A stretch of 40,338 bases of DNA from a virus. The position numbers and the translations under genes were made by a program. The DNA lies in the UHGV virus genome UHGV-0319604; one strand, written 5' to 3'. Below, piece after piece: positions 430 through 12,953 of this stretch (position 1 is the stretch's first letter; the number at the start of each line of letters is the position of its first letter). The notes beneath the pieces were generated by a model that was not told the origin of the DNA, searched no databases, and was given only the letters and a program-made list of their open reading frames with translations.

Positions 430-1548
430 TTAAATAGCAAGTTTGGTCCATTCCTTCCCGCGATCATCGTTGTATCTGTCAGTGGTTGACTGTGTTTTAT
501 GCCCCAGCAAAATTTTCGTATCGATCCCCTGGGCGCGGTAAAGTCGTTCGGACAATGAGCGCTGTTCGTGAAACGTTGTGGGTGTTTTTCCTGCAGGCGG
601 TACGATACCGGCTGCATCACGTGCCGCGGCAAACTCTTTGGAAACCAAAATCAGATTCACAGGTTTCGCCTTACTGTTCATTTTCCCGTGCAAGAGGTAG
701 GGACTGACAAACCTATCCCTACATTTCCGTATTACATCCTCCAGCGATAAGCCAATGGCTTCACAACGGAGGTTCAGCGGCAATGCAATACGTGCCCCCG
801 TTTTGCTTTGCTCGATGTGCAGATAGCCGTCCTTAATGTCTGAAAATTTCATGTTCGCAATATCCTCCCGGCGCTGACCAGTGACTAACGCAAGCAGCAT
901 CGCTTTATGCGAGTACCGATCCTCGGGTATTTGCGCCAGTATTTTTTTCCATTCGTCCAGAGAGAGGCGCGCACGTGTAACCTTCACCGAGGGTTTTTTT
1001 GTTGCTGCTGGTGGATTCCATCCAGGAGGCACCTCTCCTGCATGTTGTGCTTCAGTGAAAATATCCACCCATACCACCCGGTTACAGAGGGCACTGCTGG
1101 CATGTCCTGCATCCAGATATTCATCCAGTAACACGGCAAAATCCTTTACCTCCAAACTCTTCATTGGCCGGGAACCAAGCCGCCTGGAAAGCAACTCTGC
1201 CATGCGTTTTTTTTCTTTAAAGCGTTTCAGCGATAGCGATCCGGCATCCAGGCTTTGTGTCTGAATCTTCAGATATCGTTCTATCCATGCTTTGAGGCTG
1301 ATCCCGCGCTGTGCTGCTGCTTTTGGAGTATCATCAATTTGGCGCAAATAGTGCTCGGCTTCTGCTGCTGCAATTCTCTGATTTGCCGTTGTGGCTATTT
1401 TTTCCGCTTTCTCTCTGTCTGTTCCCAGGCCGTGGAACTTACCCGTTAAAGGGTTTTTATACTGGTAGTATGTTTTTGCTGTGCGACGATCAAACCGGGC
1501 ATACAGCCCGGAAATTGATACATTATTTTTTCGTGGCCTTGGTGACAT
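430..1548 (-). CDS. int: Phage integrase, tyrosine recombinase family
   Basis: 372-aa ORF; C-terminal catalytic-type motifs HEQRSLSERLY ... LLGH ... DRY (H-x-x-R and terminal Tyr); position at prophage end overlapping excisionase gene. Confidence 0.85.
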   Translation of the reverse strand: MSPRPRKNNVSISGLYARFDRRTAKTYYQYKNPLTGKFHGLGTDREKAEKIATTANQRIAAAEAEHYLRQIDDTPKAAAQRGISLKAWIERYLKIQTQSLDAGSLSLKRFKEKKRMAELLSRRLGSRPMKSLEVKDFAVLLDEYLDAGHASSALCNRVVWVDIFTEAQHAGEVPPGWNPPAATKKPSVKVTRARLSLDEWKKILAQIPEDRYSHKAMLLALVTGQRREDIANMKFSDIKDGYLHIEQSKTGARIALPLNLRCEAIGLSLEDVIRKCRDRFVSPYLLHGKMNSKAKPVNLILVSKEFAAARDAAGIVPPAGKTPTTFHEQRSLSERLYRAQGIDTKILLGHKTQSTTDRYNDDRGKEWTKLAI

Positions 1549-1882: not shown

Positions 1883-2176
1883 TCAATCGGGCGTGTTGAT
1901 AAACTTCCTCACCAGCGCAGACTCCATTCGCCTGATACAGTCGCGTATCCTTGTCATTTGCACTTCGGGAAACTGACTCCGCCCCATCTCTTCCAGTACG
2001 CTGACAAGATGGTGATCCTGGACTTTGGTCGCCAGTACGCGAGCGCATGCACGCAATGATTCTCCGATACGCCGTTTTTCTATGGCTGCAAATGCTCGGC
2101 ACAGCTCCAGAGTTACCAGCGTGTCGGGAAATTCTGCAAATCGGGTATTGGCGATAACTTCCTTTGCTTTGATCAC
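1883..2176 (-). CDS. Hypothetical early protein (97 aa), GTG start overlapping upstream stop (GTGA)
   Basis: ORF in track (1883..2218); likely start is GTG at 2174-2176 overlapping the stop codon of the upstream 626-aa gene, suggesting translational coupling. Confidence 0.4.
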   Translation of the reverse strand: MIKAKEVIANTRFAEFPDTLVTLELCRAFAAIEKRRIGESLRACARVLATKVQDHHLVSVLEEMGRSQFPEVQMTRIRDCIRRMESALVRKFINTPD

Positions 2177-4053
2177 TCTGCAATCTCCTGCTGACTGATA
2201 ACGCTGCTGGCAAGCCACACGGCCATACCCGGTAGATCATCGTACTGATTGCAGTATGCAGGGTTAGCACATAACCCCTGCAGCGCGGCGGCCGTCAGCT
2301 GCTGATGATAGGTAAGGGCGAATGTTGATGGCTCAGGTACGGAAGCAGGGCGCTGTTCTTCTGGTTTGGCTTCGATCTCTGGGGGAGGCAAAACCACAGC
2401 AACAGGTGCCTCTTCAGTTCCTTCCTGCCGATATTGTTCTAAAATGCGCGTGAGATAATCGAATCGTGTTTCAGGGTTGTCGCTCCATTCTTCGAGCGCA
2501 TTCCAGACCAGATATTCAACATCGTCATCATCAATAATTTCTGGGGTCTCGCCATTTTCCAAAGCAAAAATATCAGTCATGATCATCATTGCAATGTGCG
2601 ATGAATCATGGCCTGTATTGGAGATCAGAAGCTCTGCCTCTTCCTCGTTAAAATAGGCAGTTCTCCCTGCCAGGGTATTTTCTACCAGCGCCTTAATTGC
2701 CTCCTCTCGTGCTGACAGCACAGGTTGATCGTCATTTTTGGCAGATGTAAGCGATTCGACTGTGAAGACGCCGCCGCCCAAGTTCTCCACCCGCGGTTGA
2801 TCCCCGGTTTGATTTTCAGGTGCAGGGCTCTGAGCGAATGCCTCTTTGAGTTCTTTGTCGAGTTGCGCAGCTTTGCCAGGGCAAACTGCTGGTGGCAGAG
2901 TTTCGCCCGGTACAGTCGATTCGGTTTCATCATTTTCTTTTTTCTCAGCATTGGTGCGAGGTTTTGGACGGCAGGCCGTATCAATTGTTTTCTGGTCAGG
3001 GTGCGCGTGGTCAGATTCAACCAACTCGCGATTGATGTACTCCCGTAATTTGATCGGATTGAGCCAGATGTCTTCTGGTGCTGACTTGATCAGGGCGATG
3101 ATGGACGCACGCGAATAGTCCAAAATTCCAGGGGTGCCGCGTAGCTGCGCCCACCATGCAGTAAAACGAGGATCCTGTGCGGCTTCCGCCATTGCTTTCG
3201 CTGGAATCATGTATTTATTCGGGATCCAGTAAATGTCGATCTCGTCGTACATACTCAGAATGGCAATAGCCACTTCGATACGCAGCGTAGAGAGGTTATG
3301 AACCAGATCCGGGCTACGGTCTGTCTTGTTGCCACCACCCAGCGTGGAGCCGGTGTCTGTACGGTTTTCTTCTGTGGTTGTGGTAGACTGAGGACGCTTA
3401 TCAACTGGTGTATCGATCCATTTAGCGATCTGCTTTTTGATGTCCGGCCACTGCGCAGATCCTTTGGTGTTCTCACGTAACCAGGAGAGTAATTGCTCCT
3501 GGCGTTCCGGCGCCAACTCAAGCGCGCGGCGCTCTTTTGCAAGTGCTTCTGCAAGCTCGCGGGCAAAGCTGGGTTCATCGTCATTCCTCAAATCGACGAT
3601 CTGGCCATACTGCGCTGAAGTGATTCCAGGGACCGGGCCGAACAGTGCCAGACAAGCTGCGCGGGATGCCTGGTCGAGCTGCGCAACGATTTTAATTTCT
3701 TCCTGAGTCTTGTTGTCCTCCCATTCTTCCTTTGCTTCAGTCTCTGGCTTTGGTGCAGCAGCTGGTTCACCGCGGTTGGTATTCCAGATAACGTGATCAC
3801 CAAAGAAATCAGAGCTAAACACATCAAGCTCAGGGCAGGGGAGATCATCATGGTGTTCCCAGATTTTCACCTTAAAATAATCATCAATATGTTCAGGATG
3901 TTCTGCCGCCAGCTTACCGAAAATAACGGCTTCAGCGATGGCTTTTGTGGCCGCATTAACTGCGGTGGCAAGTGGTTTTAAATCGGGATGTTTTTTTAAT
4001 GCTTTATCTTTTGGGAAGTAAGCACCACCAAATACTTTTAACTCAACAGACAT
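2173..4053 (-). CDS. Large acidic early-left protein, possibly RecE-family (exonuclease VIII-like) N-terminal/middle region without an obvious nuclease domain
   Basis: 626-aa ORF; segment GGGNKTDRSPDLVHNLSTLRIEV...DIYWIP...LDYSRASIIALIKSAP...ESDHAHPDQKTIDTAC resembles my recollection of RecE; gene order (Zn-ribbon small gene, then large gene, then xis/int) parallels the Rac prophage. Family assignment is from memory only. Confidence 0.4.
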   Translation of the reverse strand: MSVELKVFGGAYFPKDKALKKHPDLKPLATAVNAATKAIAEAVIFGKLAAEHPEHIDDYFKVKIWEHHDDLPCPELDVFSSDFFGDHVIWNTNRGEPAAAPKPETEAKEEWEDNKTQEEIKIVAQLDQASRAACLALFGPVPGITSAQYGQIVDLRNDDEPSFARELAEALAKERRALELAPERQEQLLSWLRENTKGSAQWPDIKKQIAKWIDTPVDKRPQSTTTTEENRTDTGSTLGGGNKTDRSPDLVHNLSTLRIEVAIAILSMYDEIDIYWIPNKYMIPAKAMAEAAQDPRFTAWWAQLRGTPGILDYSRASIIALIKSAPEDIWLNPIKLREYINRELVESDHAHPDQKTIDTACRPKPRTNAEKKENDETESTVPGETLPPAVCPGKAAQLDKELKEAFAQSPAPENQTGDQPRVENLGGGVFTVESLTSAKNDDQPVLSAREEAIKALVENTLAGRTAYFNEEEAELLISNTGHDSSHIAMMIMTDIFALENGETPEIIDDDDVEYLVWNALEEWSDNPETRFDYLTRILEQYRQEGTEEAPVAVVLPPPEIEAKPEEQRPASVPEPSTFALTYHQQLTAAALQGLCANPAYCNQYDDLPGMAVWLASSVISQQEIAE

Positions 4054-4891: not shown

Positions 4892-5389
4892 TTATAGCAT
4901 CTGAAATAATTGCCGCTGAGTTAATCTCTTTTCCCATAATCGGAGGGCAGTTGCTTTTGCCCAGCGGTACCATTCGCGGCCAGCTTCTTTGTAAGAATTA
5001 CCGAGTCTAACCAGATCCCAGGTTTCCTGTGAGAAGTCGGGCTTTTTATTTGCGATATGTTGCCGGGCAGCGATCATGCTGTCGATTGCTTCGTTGATCT
5101 CCAGCGCTTCGGTGTGGTGAGATTCAATCATCTGCTCGATGGTCTTGCGGCTGTCGTGTTGATTAGCCCATTCATCCCACTGCTCATCTGCTTTCACTTC
5201 GTCGATCTCTGCGTTGAATTCTAGCGCTTCGGCGTGGTCACGTTCTGCCAGAGCTTTTAAAATTTTGTGCATCGTGTTCTCTGATTTCACTTCACGCAAT
5301 GTGCTGCAGTTATACGCGTTGAAGGTGCCATCTTCGCGTTGTTTCACGCTGTATACCGCTTTGCCGATGTTGATTTTGTGGCTGGTCAT
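4892..5389 (-). CDS. Hypothetical early protein (165 aa) with internal 40-residue duplication; first gene of leftward operon
   Basis: ORF in track; DNA near-repeat cgttgatctccagcgcttcggtgtggt (5092-5118) vs cgttgaattctagcgcttcggcgtggt (5212-5238), 120 bp apart, giving protein repeats HAEALEFNAEIDEV / HTEALEINEAIDSM. Confidence 0.5.
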   Translation of the reverse strand: MTSHKINIGKAVYSVKQREDGTFNAYNCSTLREVKSENTMHKILKALAERDHAEALEFNAEIDEVKADEQWDEWANQHDSRKTIEQMIESHHTEALEINEAIDSMIAARQHIANKKPDFSQETWDLVRLGNSYKEAGREWYRWAKATALRLWEKRLTQRQLFQML

Positions 5390-5468
5390 AGTGCATCCCT
5401 CTTTTTCACCCTTATCGCCGGGTAGGCGGAACGTTTACCTGTCGCACCTGTTGTGCTTCGATGAGTAG

Positions 5469-5539
5469 AGAATACAACATAAAGTAGATGTGTCAACACT
5501 AAAAGTAGAAGTTTAGAAGTGGCGTGCTACTTGTGGTAG
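5469..5539 (-). promoter_or_regulatory. Leftward early promoter (PL-like) with operator palindromes
   Basis: On minus strand, TTGACA (plus 5491-5496), 16-nt spacer, TATTCT (plus 5469-5474); palindromes ACATAAAGTAGATGT (5477-5491) and CTACTTGTGGTAG (5527-5539) share the CTAC/GTAG half-site with the operator at 6108-6120. Confidence 0.4.
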
Positions 5540-5551
5540 TGGTGAAAGGCG

Positions 5552-5591
5552 AAAAAAAACCCGGCATGTGCCGGGTTATTTGGGATTTTTT
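5552..5591. terminator. Rho-independent terminator at the 3' end of the repressor gene (hairpin flanked by A8 and T-rich runs; possibly bidirectional)
   Basis: cccggc-atgt-gccggg hairpin (5560-5575) preceded by aaaaaaaa (5552-5559) and followed by ttatttgggatttttttt; on the minus strand this reads hairpin + T8 directly after the repressor stop codon (5592-5594). Confidence 0.6.
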
Positions 5592-6083
5592 TTACTTCTG
5601 CGGGGTGTTGGCGTACTTCAGAAAGAAATCATAAAGCTGCTTATACCGCATTTCGAACGCCAGTAGCATGTTCTTGGCTTCGACGCTTGGGAACTGCCTA
5701 TACACTCGAAGCAGTCGCTTTTCGTCTTCACTTAAATCTCTGAATTCCGCATCGCTGTCAATGTCAGGATCTGTCGGCGGGAAGCCCGAAAACTCAGTTT
5801 CCGGAAGCTTGATGGGTACACTCTCGCCTTCGCCATAATCAAGCCATGCCGCTTGGACATTTAGCCAGTCAGCTATCTTTTGCAGTTTCTCATCGCGTGG
5901 CTTAGCCGTGCCCAGCGTATAACGACGAGCCATTTCGTATGTGACATCGCAAGCCTGGCTTAAATCCTTTACGGAACGGCGCTGTCTGCGCATTTCTTCG
6001 GTCAGCCGGTTAGCGAAATCCTGATGTTTATTCGCTTTTTCTACCATAGGTAGAAGAGTAAGGCACGGCGCGTTCATAGTCAT
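5592..6083 (-). CDS. Prophage repressor (CI-like; HTH N-terminal domain, no S24 LexA-like peptidase domain; RacR-like)
   Basis: 163-aa ORF; N-terminal HTH-type segment (VKDLSQACDVTYEMARRYTLGTAKP); divergent from a cro-like gene with shared operator region; C-terminal ~80 aa shows no Ser/Lys peptidase motifs. Confidence 0.7.
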   Translation of the reverse strand: MTMNAPCLTLLPMVEKANKHQDFANRLTEEMRRQRRSVKDLSQACDVTYEMARRYTLGTAKPRDEKLQKIADWLNVQAAWLDYGEGESVPIKLPETEFSGFPPTDPDIDSDAEFRDLSEDEKRLLRVYRQFPSVEAKNMLLAFEMRYKQLYDFFLKYANTPQK

Positions 6084-6092
6084 TTCTATTTT

Positions 6093-6126
6093 TCGTAGTT
6101 GTATTTTCTACTTTATGTAGTATATT
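6093..6126 (+). promoter_or_regulatory. Rightward early promoter (PR-like) with operator palindrome CTACTTTATGTAG
   Basis: TTGTAT (6099-6104), 16-nt spacer, TATATT (6121-6126); palindrome CTAC-N5-GTAG at 6108-6120 in the spacer; located in the 72-bp gap between divergent repressor and cro-like genes. Confidence 0.4.
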
Positions 6127-6155
6127 GCAGTCATCGACTCATTCAGGAGAACACG

Positions 6156-6425
6156 ATGACTACTTCATACAAGAACATAACGGAAAAGGCGGTGAGGTCG
6201 ATTGGTTCGGTTTCGGCCGTCGCCCGCAAATTCAACTTTAAGTCCTCACAGTCAGTAGCAAACTGGATTATCCGAAACCGAGTTCCAAGTGAGCGAGTGA
6301 TAAAGCTCTGTGAATTTGGCGGTTGGACTGTCACCCCGCATGAGTTACGTCCGGATTTGCATCCAACCCCTACCAGCGGAATTCCTGTTCAGGATATCCC
6401 ACGTGCGCAGAGGGAGTCTGAGTGA
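6156..6425 (+). CDS. Cro-like DNA-binding protein (YdaS family)
   Basis: Start ATG 6156 with SD CAGGAGA; small HTH protein (SVSAVARKFNFKSSQSVANWI) ending ...TPHELRPDLHP, resembling YdaS-type Cro proteins; divergent from repressor. Confidence 0.6.
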   Translation: MTTSYKNITEKAVRSIGSVSAVARKFNFKSSQSVANWIIRNRVPSERVIKLCEFGGWTVTPHELRPDLHPTPTSGIPVQDIPRAQRESE

Positions 6426-6874
6426 TGGAAATCAAAAAACTGGCATGTGAGCTGGAGTCCTGGGCGCAGGAAAAGGGCTGGAAGACGGTGACGCAGCTGA
6501 TAACCCCGCATCACTTTGGTGATCTGCTTCAGTCACTGGATGACGTTTCGGATCCGGACGAGTACGCGCGGCGGCTGCACAACAACAAGCAGATTATTCA
6601 GCGTGCGTTCCGCAACGATACACCTAACTACCTGAAACAGGCTGAAGCTCTGAGCTATGCCATCCGTACCGCGATTGATAACGAACTGGCGCAGAAGGAC
6701 TGCATGCACTACCGGGCGGCCAGGGTTAACAAAGAGTGTATTGAAGCCACCAATGCTGTCTTCACAGGCAAGCCGCAACCGGTAATCCGACGCGAGACTC
6801 TGGAAGCGATCGATGCGCTGGCGCAGATGGCTGGCGTGAAAGTCCAAATTATGCACTGCCATCGCGCAGCTTAA
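6425..6874 (+). CDS. YdaT-like regulatory protein (CII position)
   Basis: ORF immediately after the cro-like gene (start overlaps its stop, TGATGG); size and position match ydaS-ydaT pairs of Rac-like prophages. Family assignment from memory. Confidence 0.4.
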   Translation: MEIKKLACELESWAQEKGWKTVTQLITPHHFGDLLQSLDDVSDPDEYARRLHNNKQIIQRAFRNDTPNYLKQAEALSYAIRTAIDNELAQKDCMHYRAARVNKECIEATNAVFTGKPQPVIRRETLEAIDALAQMAGVKVQIMHCHRAA

Positions 6875-6890
6875 CGGTCTGGAGGCAACT

Positions 6891-7154
6891 ATGCGTACTT
6901 CTCAGGAATTAGCGAGCGCACTGGCAGAGCGCATGAAAAACGCGATGAAGACCCGACCCGCTCAGGAGCCAGTGGATCGCCGCGGTGAAATCATTCCAGG
7001 GAAGCAATACCGCGACGAACGCGGGCGCATGGTTACAGTTTTGCGTGCATCCCAGCTCCGCGTGTCATATCGCCGGGAGGGGTACACCGGCGTCAGTGAA
7101 ACAGGGCGCCGTGAGTTTGAAATGAAGTTCACCGAGGTGAAAAGTGAGTCTTGA
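6891..7154 (+). CDS. Hypothetical small protein (87 aa)
   Basis: ORF in track with ATG start; between ydaT-like and replication genes. Confidence 0.4.
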   Translation: MRTSQELASALAERMKNAMKTRPAQEPVDRRGEIIPGKQYRDERGRMVTVLRASQLRVSYRREGYTGVSETGRREFEMKFTEVKSES

Positions 7155-8178
7155 TGCCATGCGCTGGGCCAAAAAGGTCAAAACAGGGCGATCGTCTGCA
7201 AAGTCGGTCCTTACCTGGCTGGCTGATATGTGCGGAGCCGACTTAACGACATACCCGTCAATTGCCGCTCTGTCAGAAGCTACTGAGCTAGACAAAAAAA
7301 CAGTTCAGGCAAGCCTGCAGCATCTGATCGCTATGGGATTTATCCAGGACACTGGAGAACGTCGCGGGCGCACAAAACAAATCCCTGTCTACAAATTAAT
7401 CGGGGTGGAGGAAAGCATTGCAGATTCTGAACACACCCAAAAACGGGAACATTACCAAAAACGGGGTCGTTCAAAGGGAACCGAAAACGGGAGTGTTTCA
7501 GAAAACGAACCCAAAAACGGTGCTGTTAAAAAGGGTGAAACGATCCCGTTTTTTCCGTCAAACGATCCCAAAAACGGGATACGGAATCCCCCAGAGGAAT
7601 CTAAAGATCTAAACCCCACACATAGCGCGCGAGGGGAACTGGTTGGATCAGTCAGTGAAAGACCGGTTCCGGAATACCCTGGTCAGCCAGGCACGTTTTT
7701 CCCCGCCTCTCAGTTGCTCGGGAAATTTCCGATGAGCAAGGAGTGGAAACCATCTGCGGACTTTCGCAAACAGGCGAACCTCTGGGGGCGCCCTGTGCCT
7801 GAGAAACTAACTCCCGATGATTTACGCGCTGCACATGCCTGCTTTGTCGATTACTGGATCTCTGAGGGCAAGGCATTCAACCAGACGCAGTGGGAGCAAA
7901 AATTTGCTCTCCACCTGCAGAACACAAAGCCAACAAAACCGCGAGGTAATTCTCATGCAGGACTGGACCCAAACTCCACAGCAAACGCTGCTGTACAACG
8001 AGCGCGCGCAGCACGTGCAGAACAATTACGAGCTCGAGGAGAAGGCGTGGAAATTCTGGGAACTCATGCTGGAAATTTACTCCACCCGCTGGGAGACCAA
8101 AAACGGATCGGCTCCGTCGGACCTATGGATTGCGCAGATTGGGAGTTTGACCAGCGCCCAGACGACGAGCGTCTGTAA
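7144..8178 (+). CDS. Replication initiation protein (O-like: N-terminal HTH domain plus DnaT-like C-terminal region)
   Basis: N-terminal MRWAKKVKTGRSSAKSVLTWLADMCGADLTTYPSIAALSEATELDKKTVQASLQHLIAMGFI is a typical phage replication-protein HTH; followed by a low-complexity linker and a conserved C-terminal region. Last ~75 codons overlap the next gene out of frame. Confidence 0.6.
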   Translation: MSLDAMRWAKKVKTGRSSAKSVLTWLADMCGADLTTYPSIAALSEATELDKKTVQASLQHLIAMGFIQDTGERRGRTKQIPVYKLIGVEESIADSEHTQKREHYQKRGRSKGTENGSVSENEPKNGAVKKGETIPFFPSNDPKNGIRNPPEESKDLNPTHSARGELVGSVSERPVPEYPGQPGTFFPASQLLGKFPMSKEWKPSADFRKQANLWGRPVPEKLTPDDLRAAHACFVDYWISEGKAFNQTQWEQKFALHLQNTKPTKPRGNSHAGLDPNSTANAAVQRARAARAEQLRARGEGVEILGTHAGNLLHPLGDQKRIGSVGPMDCADWEFDQRPDDERL

Positions 8179-8605
8179 TGCGCTGGTGGCGCGCTGTAAA
8201 GCAGGTAATTCCTGGCCGCCGGATCTGGCTGAATTCGTGACGCTGGTGGCGGACATCAGCGGTAACGCTCTTGGGCTAAGAACGGCAGACGTGATGGCGG
8301 AATACAAGCGCTGGCGCAACGAGTCTTACCGCTATGACAGCTCAGAGGTATTTCCGTGGCGTCATCCGGTTTTGTATCAGATTTGCACCGAAATGCGACG
8401 CTCCGGTGTTGAGCGTCAAATGACCCAGACCGAACTGGAAGCACTCGCCGCCTCGCAGCTGGCGAAGTGGGAAAAACATTTGGCGGACGGGCATCCGATC
8501 CCTCCGGTGAGAAAACAAATTGCCGCGCCACGCCATGCTCCAGGACCGACCCCCGCGCAATTGCTTAAAGCGCAGGCCGAAGCAGCAAAATTAAACCGTA
8601 TGTGA
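7955..8605 (+). CDS. Replication protein P-like (helicase loader)
   Basis: Start ATG 7955 with SD GAGG; motifs WPPDLAEFVTLV, FPWRHPVLYQICTEMRR and ELEALAASQLAKWEKHLADGHPIPP align by eye with lambda P (PSPGQFVAWCRE, YPWKSNAHYWLVTNLYQNMR, ELRRKAADELVHMTARINRGEAIPEP) as recalled. Confidence 0.55.
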   Translation: MQDWTQTPQQTLLYNERAQHVQNNYELEEKAWKFWELMLEIYSTRWETKNGSAPSDLWIAQIGSLTSAQTTSVCNALVARCKAGNSWPPDLAEFVTLVADISGNALGLRTADVMAEYKRWRNESYRYDSSEVFPWRHPVLYQICTEMRRSGVERQMTQTELEALAASQLAKWEKHLADGHPIPPVRKQIAAPRHAPGPTPAQLLKAQAEAAKLNRM

Positions 8606-8612
8606 ACAGGAG

Positions 8613-9302
8613 ATGATTATGGAAACCGTACTGGATGCACTGAAAGCCATGAAAAAAGCGACATATCGCGAGGTTGCCGCCCGTCTTGATATCGAACCAG
8701 TAGAAGCGCTGAACATGCTGCGCGAGCACAAACAGCAGGGTTTGTGTGATTTCTTCGATGGGGCATGGTCAGTCGGTACCGCGAAAGAGCAGGCCAGGGA
8801 ACTGGCAAAAGCGCCAGCTGTGGCGCCAGTGCATCAGTCACCGCGTCTGAAAGGTGAGGAACCAGCACCGGTTGATGCTGAGGCCGTCCGCCAGATGCTC
8901 GGCAAGAACGGAGCTATGACCACCGCGGCACTGGCCGCAGCTGTAAACCGTAATGCCCGCGGCATGGTCTCAGTGATGCTGGCGTTTGAGCGCCAGGGTG
9001 TTGTTATCAAAAACGGCCTGGGGAAGGGCGTTACATGGTCTCTCCCTGTAACTGGCCAGACTGAATCAGACAGCACTGAAGCGGTACAACCTGAGCCAGG
9101 CAGTAAATCCCTGAATGAAATTATTGGGGATATTCCTGCGTTCACCGCCCGCCCTGATGACCTGATTATTCCGTCATCGCGCTTTATTTCGAACGAAATC
9201 CGCCGCACAAAAGCGAAGCTGTCAAACCTGCAGCGTCTTCAGGGTGCCGTTCGGGAGCTGCGTCGCCATAAACATCTGCTGGCAGGTATCAGCGATGAGT
9301 GA
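8613..9302 (+). CDS. Hypothetical protein (229 aa) with two winged-helix-like segments
   Basis: ORF with SD AGGAG; two internally similar helical segments (ATYREVAARLDIEPVEALNMLREHKQQGL and AMTTAALAAAVNRNARGMVSVMLAFERQGVVIKNG). Confidence 0.45.
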   Translation: MIMETVLDALKAMKKATYREVAARLDIEPVEALNMLREHKQQGLCDFFDGAWSVGTAKEQARELAKAPAVAPVHQSPRLKGEEPAPVDAEAVRQMLGKNGAMTTAALAAAVNRNARGMVSVMLAFERQGVVIKNGLGKGVTWSLPVTGQTESDSTEAVQPEPGSKSLNEIIGDIPAFTARPDDLIIPSSRFISNEIRRTKAKLSNLQRLQGAVRELRRHKHLLAGISDE

Positions 9303-9525
9303 TTTACCAAAATGCCCTGACTGCGGCCAGTCACCATCGATAAAGGTCCGTAGCCGGGGGATGAACTGGGGTTCTGCAGAAATTCGTTGTTCAAACGGAT
9401 GCTCTGCCTGGCGGGTGGGATTTTCGTTCCCATCCGGCGGTGAGACGGCAGCCCGTAAAGAACTTGAAGATAAATGGCAAAAGCTGGTGGGAGGGCTTAA
9501 CGATGCCAAGACCAAAAACGCATGA
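9295..9525 (+). CDS. Small zinc-ribbon protein (CxxC ... CxxxC)
   Basis: Start ATG 9295 overlapping upstream stop; PKCPDCGQ ... CSNGCSAW cysteine pairs. Confidence 0.4.
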   Translation: MSDLPKCPDCGQSPSIKVRSRGMNWGSAEIRCSNGCSAWRVGFSFPSGGETAARKELEDKWQKLVGGLNDAKTKNA

Positions 9526-9970
9526 CGAGCGCACCAGGATTATCAATCGGATTATCGATCTGGTGAAAGAACATGGGCGCATCACTACGAAAGATGTCGT
9601 TGCGATGTTCGATCTGCATCGCACAACCGCTGAGAAATATCTCCGCACCGCGATAGAGCAGGGAGGCCTTGTTCGCCACGGTCGCTGCGGTACGTTCGGC
9701 GATGTTGGTCCTGTTGGCCCACTAAAGCATCTGTCGAAAGAAGCTCTTGAAGCAGCAGCCGAACCTAATGATCTCAGTGAGTGGGCCGATATGCAGTTCT
9801 TGTTATGGGATGCCCAGCGCCGCGCTGGTATCAGCGATGGTGAAATCACTGCAGCGATGGAAGAAAAGCTAAAGGTGAATATGGCGCGACAGTGGCCTGA
9901 ACCGAAGGACGGAGAACCACGTCTGCATATCAAGACAGCCCCGTTGCAGGAGGTGAAACAGTGTACCTGA
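9503..9970 (+). CDS. Hypothetical protein with N-terminal winged-helix-like domain
   Basis: Start ATG 9503 after GGGAGGG; TRIINRIIDLVKEHGRITTKDVVAMFDLHRTTAEKYLRTAIEQGGLV. Confidence 0.4.
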   Translation: MPRPKTHDERTRIINRIIDLVKEHGRITTKDVVAMFDLHRTTAEKYLRTAIEQGGLVRHGRCGTFGDVGPVGPLKHLSKEALEAAAEPNDLSEWADMQFLLWDAQRRAGISDGEITAAMEEKLKVNMARQWPEPKDGEPRLHIKTAPLQEVKQCT

Positions 9971-10050
9971 TGGAGCTGTTATCAGGCGCAGTCTGGCTGG
10001 TAGTTTTAATCGTGCTGGTGGTGCTGGCTCTGAGAAGAATTGATTACTGA
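9970..10050 (+). CDS. Candidate small hydrophobic peptide (26 aa, MELLSGAVWLVVLIVLVVLALRRIDY)
   Basis: ATG overlaps upstream stop (TGATG); single predicted TM helix then RR; followed 12 nt later by a strong terminator. Below the 60-aa track cutoff. Confidence 0.3.
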   Translation: MELLSGAVWLVVLIVLVVLALRRIDY

Positions 10051-10061
10051 TTAAGCACTTA

Positions 10062-10081
10062 CCCGCTTCGGCGGGTTTTTT
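10062..10081 (+). terminator. Rho-independent terminator ending the early-right operon
   Basis: cccgc-ttcg-gcggg hairpin followed by tttttt. Confidence 0.6.
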
Positions 10082-10146
10082 GCCCTAGGCCAAAGCCCTT
10101 TAACATTTCGTGCTGTTAAACCGTTGATCAATTCCATGTGTGAGTG

Positions 10147-10166
10147 TACTGTATAAATATACAGTA
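10147..10166. promoter_or_regulatory. LexA box (SOS operator), perfect palindrome TACTGTATAAATATACAGTA
   Basis: Matches the CTGT-N8-ACAG LexA consensus on both half-sites; sits 20 nt upstream of the ATG at 10187 and overlaps a TATAAAT -10-like element. Confidence 0.8.
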
Positions 10167-10186
10167 ACATTGTGGAGGCGATCACC

Positions 10187-10510
10187 ATGGGTTTTCCATC
10201 ACCAGCAGCAGACTACGCAGAGCAAACCCTCTCAATTACCAGTATCTGCGGTTATGACAGCAACTGCCGCACCATCGAAACCTCTTCCGGTTACGCAATC
10301 ATCAACATTGCCAGAAAGGCGAAGATTGGCGACACGGTTCTCATTTCCTTTTGTGGAAAGCTGGACTTCGCCTCCGTTCAGGGGAAAGCACTCATCACGC
10401 CTGACGGAGAGGCGATTGAAGGTGATGCGCTGGACGATGCGACCGTTCTTGGAGTTGTTACATACCTTCTGAACAGCGTTACCGACACAGACGACAGGCC
10501 AGTGATATAG
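10187..10510 (+). CDS. UmuD'-like S24-fold protein lacking the catalytic Ser/Lys dyad (pseudo-peptidase), LexA-regulated
   Basis: SD GGAGG 7 nt upstream; begins MGFPSPAADYAEQ, matching the UmuD segment immediately after its cleavage site (CGFPSPAADYVEQ); C-terminal GDTVLISFCGKLDFA...ATVLGVVTYLL aligns with UmuD GDIVIAAVDGEFTVK...LDVFGVVIHVV, but the GDSM Ser position reads GYAI and the Lys position is Ala/Ser. UmuD sequence is from memory. Confidence 0.6.
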   Translation: MGFPSPAADYAEQTLSITSICGYDSNCRTIETSSGYAIINIARKAKIGDTVLISFCGKLDFASVQGKALITPDGEAIEGDALDDATVLGVVTYLLNSVTDTDDRPVI

Positions 10511-10556
10511 CAGAGCGTGCATGATTCCTGTGCATAAAGAGCCGATCGGTTACACA

Positions 10557-10578
10557 GATCAATTACGGTTAATTGATC
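10557..10578. repeat. Perfect inverted repeat GATCAATT-acggtt-AATTGATC (two GATC sites)
   Basis: Seen directly; 8-bp arms, 6-nt spacer, in the noncoding gap downstream of the UmuD'-like gene. Confidence 0.5.
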
Positions 10579-10695
10579 TATCTAACCTATTAGACGTTCA
10601 TGGCGATGGCTGCTTTAGTTACGTTCAGCGCGCAGGGAGAAAAGGGCCGCCCCCCGATTAGTCGGGGATGACTGAATTGAATAGGATTTTTCGTT

Positions 10696-10863
10696 ATGAA
10701 TGAGCAAGAATTAATCGCTGCCGTTCGCCCTGCTGGACGTTATGAGGTAGTGAGCCGGGAGGATGGCTCCTTTGTTGTAATCCCTGTACCTGCCGAAGCA
10801 ATACTCATCACCAGGGAAGCACTCAGACAATGCCTTGAGCGCTTCCGCAACCCTGACAACTGA
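10696..10863 (+). CDS. Possible small ORF (55 aa), no clear RBS
   Basis: ATG..TGA ORF MNEQELIAAVRPAGRYEVVSREDGSFVVIPVPAEAILITREALRQCLERFRNPDN; coding status uncertain. Confidence 0.25.
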   Translation: MNEQELIAAVRPAGRYEVVSREDGSFVVIPVPAEAILITREALRQCLERFRNPDN

Positions 10864-11002
10864 TTTATAATAATCAAGCTGGCCTGAACAACCAGCGCCT
10901 GTCGCACCATCACCGGAGAAAAGTGATGGCGCAAAGAACTACCCAGAATTATTCACACCGCCCATTCGCGCGCGGTGTTTCTGCTTATGCTGGTGATCCA
11001 GC

Positions 11003-11299
11003 ATGAAGAAAGCAGATAGCCTCCATCTTTCACGTGTGGCCGCGCTGGGCTGCATCGTGTGCAGAAACCAGAACTTGGGCGAGACGCCTGCGGAAATTCA
11101 CCATATCCGAACCGGTCAGGGCACCAGTCAACGTGCTGACCATCGGAAATCAATTCCCCTGTGCCATATGCACCACCGCAACGGCGGTTACGGTGTCGCG
11201 ATTCATGCTGGCCGCCGCGCCTGGGAAATGAAGTACGGCACTGAAGCTGAACTGCTGGTGCAGGTTCTCTATTTGCTGGGAGAGCCTGCCGATGAGTAA
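11003..11299 (+). CDS. Small HNH-motif zinc-binding protein (Ref/DUF1364-like)
   Basis: CIVCRNQ ... EIHHIR ... CHMHH pattern (CxxC, HH, CHxHH) typical of small phage HNH-like proteins. Confidence 0.45.
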   Translation: MKKADSLHLSRVAALGCIVCRNQNLGETPAEIHHIRTGQGTSQRADHRKSIPLCHMHHRNGGYGVAIHAGRRAWEMKYGTEAELLVQVLYLLGEPADE

Positions 11300-12953
11300 G
11301 CCAGTCAGTTACGGCTCAGTGTGCAGCGGCATCGAGGCCGCCAGCGTGGCATGGCATTGTTTGGGCTGGCAGCCAGCATGGTTCGCTGAGATAGAAAAAT
11401 TCCCCTCTGCTGTTCTGGCGTACCGCTGGCCGGACGTAAGCAATCTGGGTGATATGACGCAAATCCCCGCGGCAATCCGTGCCGGAAAAATCGAAGCGCC
11501 TGATGTGCTGGTGGGGGGCACCCCTTGCCAGGCGTTCAGCGTTGCGGGTTTACGTAATGGGCTGGCTGACGAACGCGGCCAGTTAACTTTGGCTTTTGTG
11601 GAGCTGGTTAATGCTATCGATGAACTACGCAGAGAACAGGGAAAAACTCCCGTCATCGTCGTCTGGGAAAACGTCCCCGGCGTATTCAGCAGCAAAGATA
11701 ACGCTTTCGGATGTTTTCTTGCAGGGCTTGCCGGCGAAAGCTGCGCGCTGGAATCACCAGGGAAGCGATGGTCAAACGCTGGTTATGTGCTGGGACCAGA
11801 AAGAGCTATTGCCTGGCGAGTGCTCGACGCTCAATTTTTCGGAGTGGCCCAACGACGCAGACGTGTGTTTGTTGTCGCAACAGCTCGAGGGGATATCGAT
11901 CCCGCAAAAATTCTTTTTGAGTCCGAAGGCCTGCGCCGGAATTCTCCGCCGCGCAGAAGTTCGCGGGAAGAAGTTGCCGGAACTTTTAAGGCTCGCGCTA
12001 ATTCAGGTGGCTGGGGACAAGATGTAGAACTTGCCGCAGGTGGCTATATGCAAGTTGTTGTTGGTAGTCACTGGGATAATCCATTGAACCCACACCCAAC
12101 ACTAAATCAGTCATTCAACACTGGTGGTATCGGTGCGAGTAACCAGGAATTATTCAGTCAGCGCGGAAGCGGGATTGTCGGAACGTATGTAAACACTAGC
12201 CGCACACTTTTGGGAAAACCTAACTGCAGCATGGCTGAAGACTTGGAAACTTTTGCCATACATGGAACCCAGGATCCGGATACTCTTCACGATATGGCAC
12301 ATGCCCTGGGGCGCAATCACGGGCAGAAAAACGCGGTTATTGCATTCAGTTCGAAAGATAGCGGCCATGATGCAGCCAGCGACATATCACCAACGCTTCG
12401 CGCAGGGAATAGCAGCAACAGCAATCAGAACGCTGGCGCACCGCCAGCAATAGCTTACGGCATTCCAGGAAACTGGATAGGCCGCGCTCCGCAAAACGGA
12501 GGAAATGCAGTAGAGCCTATGCATGATGTGTCTCCATGTCTGACCGTTGCGGATTGTCACGGCGTTGCATATGCCTTTAAGGCGGGGCAGGGTGCAAAAG
12601 CTAACGGCATAGGATACGCAGCCGAACAAGCCCCAACACTGACAAGCGCAAATAGCGGGAGCAATCAGGCTCCTGCAATCATGCAAAACATGGCCGTTCG
12701 CCGTCTGACTCCTGTCGAGTGCGAACGTCTGCAGGGCTTCCCAGATAACCACACCCTGATCCCCACACAAAAACGTAAGCAGCTCACCGCTGAAGAATAC
12801 GCCTACCTGCGCCACCACCGGCCAGAACTGACTGCAGAACAGGCTTACCGCCTGGCCGCTGATGGACCGCGCTATAAAGCGATCGGAAACTCAATGGCCG
12901 TACCGGTTATGCGGTGGATTGGTTCCCGCATACAGGAGGCGCTGCGTGCATAA
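11292..12953 (+). CDS. DNA (cytosine-5)-methyltransferase, orphan (no adjacent restriction gene), with long low-complexity target-recognition region
   Basis: C5-MTase motifs: GSVCSGIEAAS (motif I-like), GGTPCQAFSVAG (PCQ motif IV), ENV (motif VI), RRRVFVVA (motif VIII), RLTPVECERLQGFPDNH and AIGNSMAVPV (motifs IX/X). Confidence 0.85.
   Translation: MSKPVSYGSVCSGIEAASVAWHCLGWQPAWFAEIEKFPSAVLAYRWPDVSNLGDMTQIPAAIRAGKIEAPDVLVGGTPCQAFSVAGLRNGLADERGQLTLAFVELVNAIDELRREQGKTPVIVVWENVPGVFSSKDNAFGCFLAGLAGESCALESPGKRWSNAGYVLGPERAIAWRVLDAQFFGVAQRRRRVFVVATARGDIDPAKILFESEGLRRNSPPRRSSREEVAGTFKARANSGGWGQDVELAAGGYMQVVVGSHWDNPLNPHPTLNQSFNTGGIGASNQELFSQRGSGIVGTYVNTSRTLLGKPNCSMAEDLETFAIHGTQDPDTLHDMAHALGRNHGQKNAVIAFSSKDSGHDAASDISPTLRAGNSSNSNQNAGAPPAIAYGIPGNWIGRAPQNGGNAVEPMHDVSPCLTVADCHGVAYAFKAGQGAKANGIGYAAEQAPTLTSANSGSNQAPAIMQNMAVRRLTPVECERLQGFPDNHTLIPTQKRKQLTAEEYAYLRHHRPELTAEQAYRLAADGPRYKAIGNSMAVPVMRWIGSRIQEALRA

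What the first reader, a model, noticed from the sequence alone, without database searches (positions are those of the whole stretch)
5469..6425. Rac-like immunity switch: peptidase-less repressor with CTAC-N5-GTAG operators on both sides
The repressor has an HTH but no S24 domain, so induction cannot occur by RecA-stimulated self-cleavage. Palindromes CTACTTTATGTAG (6108-6120, inside the PR spacer) and CTACTTGTGGTAG (5527-5539), plus ACATAAAGTAGATGT (5477-5491), share CTAC/GTAG half-sites and flank the repressor gene like lambda OL/OR. A terminator (5552-5591) separates the repressor transcript from the leftward promoter. This defines a testable operator motif and implies a trans-acting induction mechanism.
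Basis: partly seen in the sequence, partly recalled or inferred. Interest (0 to 1): 0.55.

Follow-up and report, generated by a model that had tools for sequence, protein, structure and literature searches.

The report
Gifsy/Qin-type prophage immunity switch
This is the lysis-lysogeny switch of an Enterobacter prophage: a short repressor that cannot cut itself, flanked by its conserved binding sites and probably switched off by a small DNA-damage-induced partner protein, which is a known design rather than a new one.

Summary
Degenerate copies complete a lambda-like layout with OR1-3 on the right and OL1-3 on the left. In 81 related loci, all 217 exact sites lie in the immunity region at conserved positions, with fixed arms and a free spacer.

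The repressor has a 434-Cro-like HTH, a disordered linker and a C-terminal helical hairpin. Pfam, a PDB profile search and the AlphaFold2 model all find no S24 domain.

The repressor is not a RacR homologue. It belongs to the GtgR/DicA class of short repressors, which are known to be inactivated by antirepressors.

A candidate induction module lies 4 kb away. It consists of a terminator, a perfect LexA box (10149-10164), a UmuD'-like pseudo-peptidase and a 55-aa ORF (10696-10863). That ORF sits in the position of rem, the known DicA antirepressor gene, behind the same conserved leader. It co-occurs with this repressor C-terminal domain in 44 of 46 loci, whatever the HTH.

Verdict: a new member of a known kind. 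The operator set is well supported. The antirepressor identity is inferred.

The parts
5592..6083 (-). Repressor gene. The longest ORF is 163 aa. The probable true start is ATG 6047-6045 (M13, 'MVEK...'), giving 151 aa.
   Evidence: ORF list. HTH_3, DicA and PHROG 'transcriptional repressor' hits. 98% identical to an Enterobacter cloacae complex protein. M13 is invariant in the family.
5835..6023 (-). Five-helix Cro/C1-type HTH domain (residues 21-83). The recognition region VTYEMARRYT is nearly invariant in the family.
   Evidence: AF2 helices 21-83. Foldseek match to 434 Cro, TM 0.88 normalised to the target. PDB profile hits. Family alignment.
5610..5735 (-). C-terminal helical hairpin (residues 117-158; LSEDEKRLLRVYRQFPSVEAKNMLLAFEMRYKQLYDFF). 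It takes the place of the S24 domain and is the presumed oligomerisation and antirepressor-target domain.
   Evidence: AF2 helices 119-129 and 133-158. Aligns with the DicA and GtgR C-termini. Shared by repressors with three different HTH types.
6108..6120 (.). OR1: CTACTTTATGTAG, inside the PR spacer.
   Evidence: Exact site at -37 or -38 in almost all relatives.
6086..6098 (.). OR2: CTATTTTTCGTAG (one mismatch). It abuts the PR -35 and lies 2 bp upstream of the putative PRM -35.
   Evidence: Conserved as CTAC-N5-ATAG at -15 in the relatives.
6041..6053 (.). OR3: CTACCATAGGTAG. It contains the ATG of M13.
   Evidence: Conserved as CTACnTATGGTAG at +30 in 79 of 81 loci.
6099..6126 (+). PR: -35 TTGTAT (6099-6104), 16-bp spacer, -10 TATATT (6121-6126). 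It drives the cro-like and cII-like genes.
   Evidence: Read from the sequence. The -35 has only 3 of 6 matches, so the scanner missed it. The position is conserved.
6055..6083 (-). Putative PRM: -35 ATGACT (6083-6078), 17-bp variable spacer, -10 TACTCT (6060-6055). Transcription would start near A6047, giving a leaderless repressor mRNA.
   Evidence: In 51 distinct relatives the hexamers are ATGACN and TA(A/C)TCT. The spacer between them has low identity while its flanks are at least 90% conserved. This is an inference; the start site has not been mapped.
6156..6425 (+). Cro-like gene (YdaS family, 89 aa).
   Evidence: Pfam PF15943, 39.2 bits against a cutoff of 30. PHROG 35. 35% identical to E. 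coli YdaS, E = 5e-5.
6425..6874 (+). CII-like gene (distant YdaT/PHROG 163 family).
   Evidence: PHROG 163 'CII-like transcriptional activator', E = 6e-32. Pfam YdaT_toxin scores below the cutoff. No BLAST hit to E. coli YdaT.
5550..5577 (-). Intrinsic terminator of the repressor transcript: hairpin 5577-5558 followed by a U-tract.
   Evidence: A hairpin plus T-run is conserved after the repressor gene in the relatives.
5527..5539 (.). OL3: CTACTTGTGGTAG.
   Evidence: The position is conserved and the spacer is highly variable.
5496..5508 (.). OL2: minus strand CTACTTTTAGTGT (two mismatches). It overlaps the PL -35 by 1 bp.
   Evidence: It is an exact CTACTTTTTGTAG in the S24-type relatives.
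5475..5487 (.). OL1: minus strand CTACTTTATGTTG, inside the PL spacer.
5456..5468 (.). Possible extra site or half-site: minus strand CTACTCATCGAAG, just downstream of the PL -10.
   Evidence: Only the CTAC arm is conserved in distant relatives.
5469..5496 (-). PL: -35 TTGACA (5496-5491), 16-bp spacer, -10 TATTCT (5474-5469).
   Evidence: Promoter scan, 10 of 12 matches. Conserved in the relatives.
10061..10164 (+). Head of the SOS module: terminator hairpin 10061-10076, -35 TTGATC 10124-10129, and the LexA box CTGTATAAATATACAG 10149-10164 over the -10 region.
   Evidence: The same box lies about 545 bp upstream of the 55-aa ORF's homologues in the Enterobacter-group loci.
10187..10510 (+). 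[quoted passage not shown]
   Evidence: PHROG 3469, E = 1e-45. No Pfam S24 hit. It aligns from Gly25 of UmuD, with Ala in place of Ser60.
10611..10695 (+). Conserved leader upstream of the 55-aa ORF (AGCGCGCAGGGAGAAAAGGG plus a hairpin). It is homologous to the leader upstream of rem in E. coli Qin.
   Evidence: No Rfam family matches.
10696..10863 (+). The 55-aa ORF, the candidate antirepressor and positional counterpart of Rem.
   Evidence: PHROG 34610. Family found. Co-occurs with the repressor C-terminal domain in 44 of 46 loci. Weak N-terminal similarity to the Rem family.

Best explanation
The region 5456-6874 is the immunity region of a lambdoid prophage of the Enterobacter cloacae complex.

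The switch:
- A short repressor (151-163 aa) combines a 434-Cro-like HTH, a flexible linker and a C-terminal helical hairpin.
- It binds 13-bp CTAC-N5-GTAG operators arranged as in lambda.
- On the right, OR1 lies in the PR spacer and OR2 abuts the PR -35, so together they shut off the cro-like and cII-like genes. OR3 covers the repressor's own start and gives negative autoregulation.
- OR2 lies just upstream of a putative PRM, which probably produces a leaderless repressor mRNA.
- On the left, OL1 in the PL spacer and OL2 over the -35 shut off the early-left operon. OL3 lies 31 bp further upstream.
- A terminator stops PRM transcripts before they reach PL.

Induction:
- The repressor has no S24 domain, so it is not cleaved.
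- Instead, DNA damage removes LexA from a box at 10149-10164.
- This turns on an operon that encodes a UmuD'-like pseudo-peptidase and a 55-aa protein (10696-10863).
- That protein is proposed to bind the repressor's C-terminal domain and release it from DNA, as GftA does to GtgR and Rem does to DicA.

Shown here: the sequence anatomy, the conservation and the homology. Inferred: repressor-operator binding, the PRM start site, LexA control and the antirepressor role of the 55-aa protein.
For: Operators:
- The three exact sites are confined to the immunity region, against 0.16 expected. One-mismatch copies lie beside them.
- In 81 related loci with repressors 53-100% identical, all 217 exact sites fall in the immunity regions, which make up 7% of 868 kb. 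None lies elsewhere.
- Site positions are fixed at -37, -15 and +30 relative to the annotated start, and at equivalent positions on the far side of the gene. The arms are invariant and the N5 spacers vary.
- OR1 and OL1 occupy identical positions in the PR and PL spacers.
- A relative with a different HTH (L078) has no such sites.
- Cultured phages Phi06_2987 S and Providencia PSTCR8lys show the same layout around their cI genes.

No S24 domain:
-.

Family placement:
- Full-length alignment to GtgR (E = 5e-7) and to DicA (E = 1e-6; NCBIfam DicA E = 1.5e-8).
- An intermediate repressor type (seen in locus L091) links the three: E = 1.7e-29 to this repressor, 8e-21 to GtgR and 1.7e-12 to DicA.
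- GtgR-class repressors are not cleaved and are released from DNA by small antirepressors encoded in a LexA operon downstream of the replication genes (PMC3121763). Rem antagonises DicA (PMC10448788).

SOS module:
- A terminator plus a perfect LexA box over the -10 region. The cassette is conserved in the Enterobacter-group loci.

The 55-aa ORF:
- 44 of 46 loci with at least 9 kb upstream carry a repressor with this C-terminal domain. These span three HTH classes, and none is S24-type.
- In divergent phages it follows hok, a terminator and the same leader that precedes rem in Qin.
- Profile-profile match to the Rem family over the N-terminal 22 residues: E = 6.5e-4.
Against: - There are no binding or expression data of any kind.
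- The similarity of the 55-aa protein to Rem is weak (hhalign probability 27%). No BLAST hit to Rem, GftA or DinI was found in the window or the loci.
- In the divergent (Klebsiella/E. coli-type) loci, the homologues of the 55-aa ORF have no LexA box within 2.5 kb. SOS control is therefore specific to the Enterobacter-group cassette, and the family's general trigger is unknown, as it is for Rem.
- Two of the 46 loci have no detectable repressor with this C-terminal domain.
- The UmuD'-like protein or the Rha-family protein (39273-39872) could be the real antagonist.
- The PRM and leaderless-start model rests only on conservation. An in-frame ATG at 6083 is also conserved in all relatives, and no stop codon separates the two starts.
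- The Pfam HTH_3 score (21.9) is just under the gathering cutoff of 23.
Confidence: 0.7

Rival explanations
1. The switch and operators are as described, but the antirepressor is a different protein. It could be the LexA-controlled UmuD'-like pseudo-peptidase (10187-10510), a small unannotated ORF in 10510-10695, or the Rha-family protein (39273-39872). The 55-aa ORF would then have another role.
For: - The UmuD'-like gene is the first gene after the LexA box and is conserved with it.
- Rha-domain proteins sit in PHROG families annotated as anti-repressors.
- Gifsy antirepressor genes start at non-canonical codons and were missed by annotation.
- The homology of the 55-aa protein to Rem is only marginal.
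Against: - The UmuD'-like gene is limited to the Enterobacter group (plus one other locus). The 55-aa ORF follows the repressor C-terminal domain across three HTH classes and different genera.
- The repressor has no S24 domain that a UmuD'-like protein could pair with.
- No LexA box or operator lies near rha.
Confidence: 0.15
2. No dedicated antirepressor exists. The switch flips only through Cro/repressor bistability, repressor instability or proteolysis, or non-SOS signals. The LexA operon merely modulates the host SOS response.
For: - dicBp in Qin switches on spontaneously, and in response to urea or heat, independently of Rem.
- RacR-type switches have no known antirepressor.
- Homologues of the 55-aa ORF in divergent phages lack a LexA box.
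Against: - The module layout matches the proven Gifsy design: terminator, LexA box and small ORFs downstream of the replication genes, paired with a GtgR-class repressor.
- The 55-aa ORF co-occurs strongly with the repressor C-terminal domain.
- The prophage looks complete, running from integrase to tail genes, and so needs an induction route.
Confidence: 0.12
3. The CTAC-N5-GTAG palindromes are not repressor operators. They would be chance repeats, sites for the Cro-like protein only, or sites for a host factor.
For: No binding data exist. Cro proteins normally share operators with their repressor, so Cro binding is expected as well.
Against: - 0 of 100 shuffles reach the observed count.
- All 217 exact sites in the relatives lie in the immunity regions.
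- The sites track the HTH type of the repressor. They are present with S24-type repressors that share this HTH and absent with repressors that share only the C-terminal domain.
- They sit in the promoter spacers of both PR and PL.
Confidence: 0.03

Closest known systems
Gifsy-1/-2/-3 immunity systems of Salmonella (GfoR/GtgR/GfhR repressors with the LexA-controlled antirepressors GfoA/GftA/GfhA; Lemire et al. 2011, PMC3121763)
   Same: - A short repressor of about 140-160 aa with an HTH and a helical C-terminus, and no cleavage domain. It aligns full-length with GtgR and is linked through intermediate sequences.
- A separate module downstream of the replication genes made of a terminator, a LexA box and small ORFs.
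   Different: - The operators are different (CTAC-N5-GTAG).
- The first gene of the SOS operon is a UmuD'-like pseudo-peptidase, not dinI.
- No GftA/GfoA homologue is detectable. The candidate antirepressor is a different 55-aa family.
- The Cro and CII analogues are of the YdaS/YdaT type.
DicA-DicC-Rem of the E. coli cryptic prophage Qin (Ragunathan et al. 2023, PMC10448788)
   Same: - DicA-like architecture and C-terminal motif (NCBIfam DicA hit).
- The 55-aa ORF occupies the rem position behind the same conserved leader. In relatives it also lies behind hok, as rem lies behind hokD.
- Weak N-terminal similarity to Rem.
   Different: - The repressor is only about 20% identical to DicA.
- The Cro is YdaS-type, not DicC.
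- Here the rem-position ORF lies in a LexA-box operon, whereas the trigger for Rem is unknown.
- The 55-aa protein lacks the C-terminal half of Rem.
RacR-YdaS-YdaT of the E. coli Rac prophage (PMC9638921, PMC5700373)
   Same: - A peptidase-less repressor divergent from ydaS- and ydaT-like genes.
- Three inverted-repeat operators in the intergenic region. One lies in the ydaS promoter and one over the repressor start codon.
- The Cro is a member of the YdaS family.
   Different: - No sequence similarity to RacR.
- RacR operators are WTAGGC-n3-GCCTAW, and none occurs here.
- The CII-like protein is only a remote YdaT relative.
Lambda/434/P22-type CI repressors with an S24 self-cleavage domain
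   Same: - The HTH domain is 50-60% identical to the N-terminal domains of about 240-aa S24-type repressors.
- Those relatives (L079-L083, phage PSTCR8lys, Phi06_2987 S) use the same CTAC-N5-GTAG operators in the same layout.
- The tripartite OL/OR logic is the same.
   Different: The S24 domain is replaced after about residue 85 by a linker and a helical hairpin, so RecA-stimulated autocleavage is not possible.
SinR-SinI and the phage phi106 repressor-AimX pair (mechanistic analogues only)
   Same: An HTH repressor whose helical C-terminal domain is the target of a small antagonist protein. Foldseek aligns the model with 1b0n and 9sf2.
   Different: There is no sequence homology beyond the HTH. 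These are Gram-positive systems with different signals.

Membership tests
GtgR/GfoR/DicA class of short, antirepressor-controlled lambdoid repressors | N-terminal Cro/C1-type HTH DNA-binding domain | tested here: met
   Pfam HTH_3 E = 1.8e-4, with 21.9 bits just under the cutoff of 23. PDB profile hits to 434 Cro and P22 C2. AF2 five-helix domain matching 434 Cro with TM 0.88.
GtgR/GfoR/DicA class of short, antirepressor-controlled lambdoid repressors | About 135-165 aa with no S24 peptidase domain and no Ala-Gly/Cys-Gly cleavage site | tested here: met
   No PF00717 hit. The C-terminal half is modelled as a disordered linker plus two helices. No AG or CG dipeptide is present in the translation.
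GtgR/GfoR/DicA class of short, antirepressor-controlled lambdoid repressors | Sequence homology to GtgR/DicA that includes the C-terminal L-x3-E-x2-LL...LP-x2-E helical motif | tested here: met
   GtgR E = 5e-7. DicA E = 1e-6. An intermediate repressor type (seen in locus L091) links them: E = 1.7e-29 to this protein, 8e-21 to GtgR and 1.7e-12 to DicA.
GtgR/GfoR/DicA class of short, antirepressor-controlled lambdoid repressors | Repressor is not cleaved on SOS induction and is displaced from DNA by binding of a small antirepressor | not testable with these tools
   Needs a western blot after mitomycin C treatment, and EMSA or pulldown with the 55-aa protein.
GtgR/GfoR/DicA class of short, antirepressor-controlled lambdoid repressors | LexA-controlled transcription unit outside the immunity region, downstream of the replication genes and preceded by a terminator (Gifsy subtype) | tested here: met
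   Terminator 10061-10076 and LexA box CTGTATAAATATACAG 10149-10164. The cassette is conserved in relatives. Actual LexA binding was not tested.
RacR family (Rac prophage repressor) | Sequence homology to RacR | tested here: not met
   BLASTP E = 9.1.
RacR family (Rac prophage repressor) | WTAGGC-n3-GCCTAW operators in the repressor/ydaS intergenic region | tested here: not met
   No match in the window even with one mismatch allowed.
RacR family (Rac prophage repressor) | Divergent ydaS (cro-like) and ydaT (cII-like) genes | tested here: inconclusive
   YdaS family is met (39.2 bits against a cutoff of 30; E = 5e-5 to YdaS). YdaT scores below the cutoff in Pfam and gives no BLAST hit, but PHROG 163 'CII-like' scores E = 6e-32.
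LexA/CI S24 self-cleaving repressors | C-terminal S24 peptidase domain with a Ser/Lys dyad | tested here: not met
   Relatives with the same HTH do carry PF00717.
Rem/GfoA-type small antirepressors (for the 55-aa ORF, 10696-10863) | Detectable homology to Rem, GftA or GfoA | tested here: inconclusive
   hhalign of the 55-aa ORF family against the Rem family: E = 6.5e-4, probability 27%, 22 N-terminal columns. Against GftA: E = 0.05. No BLAST hits. The Rem Pfam model PF27490 is not in the local library.
Rem/GfoA-type small antirepressors (for the 55-aa ORF, 10696-10863) | Same genomic position and context as a proven antirepressor gene | tested here: met
   The same conserved leader precedes rem in Qin and the 55-aa ORF's homologues. 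hok lies upstream in divergent loci, as hokD lies upstream of rem.
Rem/GfoA-type small antirepressors (for the 55-aa ORF, 10696-10863) | Co-occurrence with a short, non-cleavable repressor | tested here: met
   44 of 46 loci carry a repressor with this C-terminal domain. Three HTH classes are represented and none is S24-type.
Rem/GfoA-type small antirepressors (for the 55-aa ORF, 10696-10863) | Binds the repressor and relieves repression | not testable with these tools
   Needs expression and binding assays, or a multimer structure prediction, which was not available here.

The most novel reading that the evidence does not exclude
The 55-aa ORF (the rem-position ORF) defines a distinct, unannotated antirepressor family.
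- It would recognise the conserved C-terminal helical hairpin of GtgR/DicA-class repressors rather than their DNA-binding domain.
- One antirepressor type could then induce heteroimmune prophages with at least three different operator specificities.
- Its expression would be governed by a conserved, structured 5' leader shared with rem. In the Enterobacter lineage this unit has been captured behind a LexA box and a UmuD'-like pseudo-peptidase. That would give a concrete answer to the open question of what triggers Rem-type antirepressors.
- The same HTH and operator set exists in nature fused either to an S24 domain or to this hairpin. This offers a natural domain-swap pair for comparing the two induction modes.
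Probability: 0.35. Interest if true: 0.55.

Novelty: new member of a known kind. Interest (0 to 1): 0.35.

Why it matters
The result gives a precise and testable operator map for a widespread immunity type of Enterobacterales prophages. The map covers seven sites, two lytic promoters and a probable leaderless PRM. This immunity type occurs in Enterobacter, Klebsiella, Citrobacter, E. coli, Salmonella and Providencia phages.

One DNA-binding and operator module is paired in nature with two different induction sensors: a self-cleaving S24 domain, or a helical domain controlled by an antirepressor.

The result also names a candidate antirepressor family and places it under LexA control. This bears on SOS- and antibiotic-triggered prophage induction in clinical Enterobacter, and on the unanswered question of what induces Rem in E. 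coli Qin.

The underlying principle is already established, so the value is incremental.

Tried and rejected
Searches that led nowhere:
- Megablast of 5390-6900 against E. coli genomes and the phage collection found nothing useful.
- The genome-contig scan returned only one locus.
- tblastn of Rem, GftA and DinI against the window and all fetched loci gave no hits.
- Pfam has no hit for the 55-aa ORF, Rem, GftA or the UmuD'-like protein. The Rem model PF27490 is absent from the local copy.
- Rfam found no family in 5300-11100.
- RNAalifold on the leader alignment did not recover the hairpin, because the groups align with different gaps. It proposed only a 3-bp GGG/CCC pairing. I did not pursue the structure further.
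- The YdaT-type site TTGATT-N6-AATCAA is not enriched: 5 matches against 2.1 expected.

Hypotheses rejected:
- Homology to RacR and RacR-type operators.
It is a shifted reading of OL1.

Left unresolved:
- M1 against M13 as the start codon. Both ATGs are conserved and no in-frame stop separates them in any relative.

- The search for related loci with the most diverse alignment of the 55-aa ORF family.
- Structure prediction with an alignment that contained DicA.
Full report
**What is in the window.** The finding lies in a lambdoid prophage.
- Integrase: 430-1548 (-).
- An early-left operon.
- Repressor: 5592-6083 (-).
- YdaS-family cro-like gene: 6156-6425 (+).
- CII-like gene: 6425-6874 (+).
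- DUF4222 protein, then O-like and P-like replication genes up to 8605, followed by late genes.

The repressor is 98% identical to a protein of the Enterobacter cloacae complex. No near-identical DNA exists in the E. coli genome or phage collections.

**Checking the observation.**
- Exact CTAC-N5-GTAG occurs three times in 40,338 bp against 0.16 expected, and 0 of 100 shuffles reach three.
- All three lie within 600 bp: 5527-5539, 6041-6053 and 6108-6120.
- With one mismatch, three further sites fall in the same region: 5456-5468, 5475-5487 and 6086-6098. A two-mismatch site lies at 5496-5508.
- The terminator is real: an 8-bp hairpin at 5558-5577 with its U-tract on the repressor strand.

**Anatomy of the switch, right side**.
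- PR is TTGTAT (6099-6104), a 16-bp spacer, then TATATT (6121-6126).
- OR1 (6108-6120) fills the PR spacer.
- OR2 (6086-6098) abuts the PR -35.
- OR3 (6041-6053, minus strand CTACCTATGGTAG) contains the ATG of Met13.

**Anatomy of the switch, left side**.
- PL is TTGACA (5496-5491), a 16-bp spacer, then TATTCT (5474-5469).
- OL1 (5487-5475) sits at exactly the same spacer position as OR1 and shares 11 of 13 bases with it.
- OL2 (5508-5496) overlaps the -35.
- OL3 (5539-5527) lies 31 bp further upstream, just after the terminator.
- Centre-to-centre spacings are 22 bp (OR1-OR2), 21 bp (OL1-OL2) and 31 bp (OL2-OL3). These put neighbouring sites on the same face of the helix.

**Comparative test of the operator model.** I fetched 80 IMG/VR loci and one Citrobacter locus that encode homologues 53-100% identical.
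- These loci hold 217 exact CTAC-N5-GTAG sites in 867,558 bp. All 217 lie in the immunity regions, which are 7% of the sequence.
- Positions are fixed: -37/-38 (OR1), -15 (OR2, always CTAC-N5-ATAG) and +30 (OR3). On the far side of the gene the order is terminator, OL3, OL2 over the -35, and OL1 in the spacer.
- The arms are invariant while the five central bases vary freely. OR1 has at least eight spacer variants and OL3 has more. That pattern is expected for 434/P22-like repressors.
- The recognition region VTYEMARRYT is nearly invariant in the family.
- Natural controls point the same way. A relative with a different HTH (L078) has no such sites. Repressors that share only the C-terminal domain also have none.
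- About 240-aa S24-type repressors that share the HTH do have the sites in the same layout. Examples are L079-L083 and the cultured phages Phi06_2987 S and Providencia PSTCR8lys.

The operator assignment is therefore well supported, although binding itself was not tested.

**A probable PRM.** I compared 51 distinct sequences of the region upstream of Met13.
- CAACTAC..AAAATAGAAATGAC and TA(A/C)TCTTCTACCTATGGTAGAAAA are at least 90% conserved.
- The 14 or so bases between them are only 35-70% conserved.
- This reads as a promoter: ATGACN (-35-like, 6083-6078), a 17-bp spacer, TA(A/C)TCT (-10-like, 6060-6055), then 7 nt to the A of the Met13 ATG (6047). It would give a leaderless mRNA, as for lambda cI.
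- OR2 would then lie 2 bp upstream of the -35, and OR3 would cover the start site.
- This would explain why residues 3-8 of the annotated N-terminus are variable.
- It remains an inference. The ATG at 6083 is also conserved, and no relative has an in-frame stop between the two starts.

**The repressor protein.**
- Pfam, NCBIfam and PHROGs detect only an HTH.
- A family profile hits only HTH domains in the PDB.
- The AF2 model (mean pLDDT 73) has five helices at residues 21-83, a disordered stretch at 84-118, and helices at 119-129 and 133-158. It has no beta structure.
- Foldseek matches 434 Cro with TM 0.88 normalised to the target, and finds no S24 fold.
- The sequence has no Ala-Gly or Cys-Gly dipeptide.

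**Family placement.**
- There is no similarity to RacR (E = 9.1). RacR operators (WTAGGC-n3-GCCTAW, PMC9638921) are absent.
- The protein aligns end to end with GtgR of Gifsy-2 (E = 5e-7) and with DicA of Qin (E = 1e-6; NCBIfam DicA E = 1.5e-8). The alignments include the C-terminal LxxxExxLL...LPxxE motif.
- Short repressors from other loci bridge the gap. The type seen in locus L091 scores E = 1.7e-29 to this protein, 8e-21 to GtgR and 1.7e-12 to DicA.
- Lemire et al. showed that Gifsy repressors are not cleaved. They are stripped from DNA by about 70-aa antirepressors encoded in a LexA-controlled operon 1.3 kb downstream of the replication genes, behind a terminator (PMC3121763).
- Ragunathan et al. 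showed that Rem antagonises DicA, and state that the signal inducing Rem is unknown (PMC10448788).

**The candidate induction module.**
- About 4 kb rightward of the repressor gene, after the replication genes, lies a terminator (10061-10076).
- It is followed by TTGATC (10124-10129) and a perfect LexA box, CTGTATAAATATACAG (10149-10164), over the -10 region.
- The first gene (10187-10510) is a 107-aa UmuD'-like protein (PHROG 3469, E = 1e-45). It begins at the equivalent of UmuD Gly25 and has Ala where UmuD has the Ser60 nucleophile. It has no Pfam S24 hit.
- Next come a conserved leader and a 55-aa ORF (10696-10863, PHROG 34610).
- The whole cassette is conserved in the Enterobacter-group relatives, with the LexA box about 545 bp upstream of the 55-aa ORF.

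**Evidence that the 55-aa ORF is the antirepressor.**
1. Co-occurrence. I fetched 62 IMG/VR loci containing homologues of the 55-aa ORF. Of the 46 with at least 9 kb upstream, 44 carry a repressor with this C-terminal domain, 3.9-9.3 kb away. Twenty-five have the CTAC-type HTH, and 19 have one of two other HTH types and no CTAC sites. None is S24-type. The ORF therefore follows the C-terminal domain, not the DNA-binding specificity.
2. Context. In the divergent loci the homologue sits behind hok, a terminator and a leader reading GGAATAGAATC...ACTTAAGTAGCGCGCAGGGAGAAGAGGGATGG plus a hairpin. The same leader precedes rem, behind hokD, in E. coli Qin. A recognisable version precedes the 55-aa ORF in the window.
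3. Weak sequence similarity. A profile-profile comparison with the Rem family aligns the N-terminal 22 residues (MNxxELxxxxxxxGxYxV) at E = 6.5e-4 and probability 27%. The single-sequence comparison gave E = 0.005.

Against this, BLAST finds no Rem, GftA or DinI homologue. The divergent homologues also lack a LexA box within 2.5 kb. I rate the antirepressor role of the 55-aa ORF at roughly 0.5-0.6.

**Modularity.**
- The HTH and operator set occurs with either an S24 domain or the helical hairpin. Sequence similarity between the two forms ends near residue 85-90.
- The helical hairpin in turn occurs with at least three HTH types.
- The structural analogues SinR-SinI (1b0n) and phi106 repressor-AimX (9sf2) also appear in the Foldseek list. 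They suggest a mechanism in which the small protein engages the helical oligomerisation domain. This is an analogy only.

**Verdict.**
- The system is a new member of the Gifsy/Qin class of antirepressor-controlled immunity regions.
- It has a well-defined, widely shared operator set and a plausible SOS-linked antirepressor in the position of rem.
- Nothing here is categorically new. The most interesting leads are the 55-aa ORF family and its conserved leader.

Noticed in passing
window 10187-10510 (+): LexA-controlled 107-aa UmuD'-like protein. It starts at the equivalent of UmuD Gly25 (GFPSPAADY), so it is a 'pre-cleaved' form. It has Ala in place of the Ser60 nucleophile and no Pfam S24 hit. 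It occupies the position that dinI holds in the Gifsy SOS operons. Its role is unknown; it may modulate RecA or the SOS response.
   Followed up: partly
window 10611-10695 (+); L002 3904-3990 (-), upstream of rem in E. coli Qin; L115-L146 upstream of the homologues of the 55-aa ORF: A conserved leader of about 85 nt, AGCGCGCAGGGAGAArAGGGAyGG, followed by a hairpin whose stem sequence differs between groups (CCCCGA/TCGGGG, CCCC/GGGG, CTCCTC/GAGGAG). It is shared by rem and by the genes of the 55-aa ORF family across genera. No Rfam family matches and the function is unknown. It could control antirepressor expression.
   Followed up: partly
L079-L083; L148 (Escherichia phage Phi06_2987 S); L149 (Providencia phage PSTCR8lys): S24-type cI repressors of about 240 aa share the HTH of this short repressor. 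They also share the same CTAC-N5-GTAG operator layout, including an operator over the ATG. This is a natural swap of the induction domain on a constant DNA-binding and operator module.
   Followed up: partly
window 10860-10877: CTGATTTATAATAATCAA lies directly after the stop codon of the 55-aa ORF. It is one mismatch from the YdaT site TTGATT-N6-AATCAA described for CP-933P. The pattern is not enriched overall (5 matches against 2.1 expected at two mismatches).
   Followed up: no
window 39273-39872 (-): A Rha-family regulatory protein (Pfam Phage_pRha) whose PHROG relatives are annotated as anti-repressors. It lies near the right end of the window, next to a family-9 glycosyltransferase-like gene (38082-39194). 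No LexA box or CTAC operator is nearby.
   Followed up: partly
window 9440-9970, 11003-11299, 11292-12953 (+): Accessory genes around the SOS module. One is a fusion of DUF977 with a dATP/dGTP pyrophosphohydrolase. One is a Ref-like RecA-dependent nuclease (PF16786). One is a 553-aa protein with C5 DNA-methyltransferase motifs (PCQ, ENV) visible in its translation.
   Followed up: no
window 10521-10661 (+): A 46-aa ORF between the UmuD'-like gene and the 55-aa ORF is conserved at 66-97% in close relatives. It overlaps the conserved leader DNA, so it may not be a gene. Gifsy antirepressor genes were likewise unannotated small ORFs.
   Followed up: no
window 2173-4053 (-): A 626-aa early-left protein matches PHROG 26058 at E = 0 and has weaker exonuclease VIII-like hits. 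It sits where recE lies in the Gifsy and Rac prophages.
   Followed up: no
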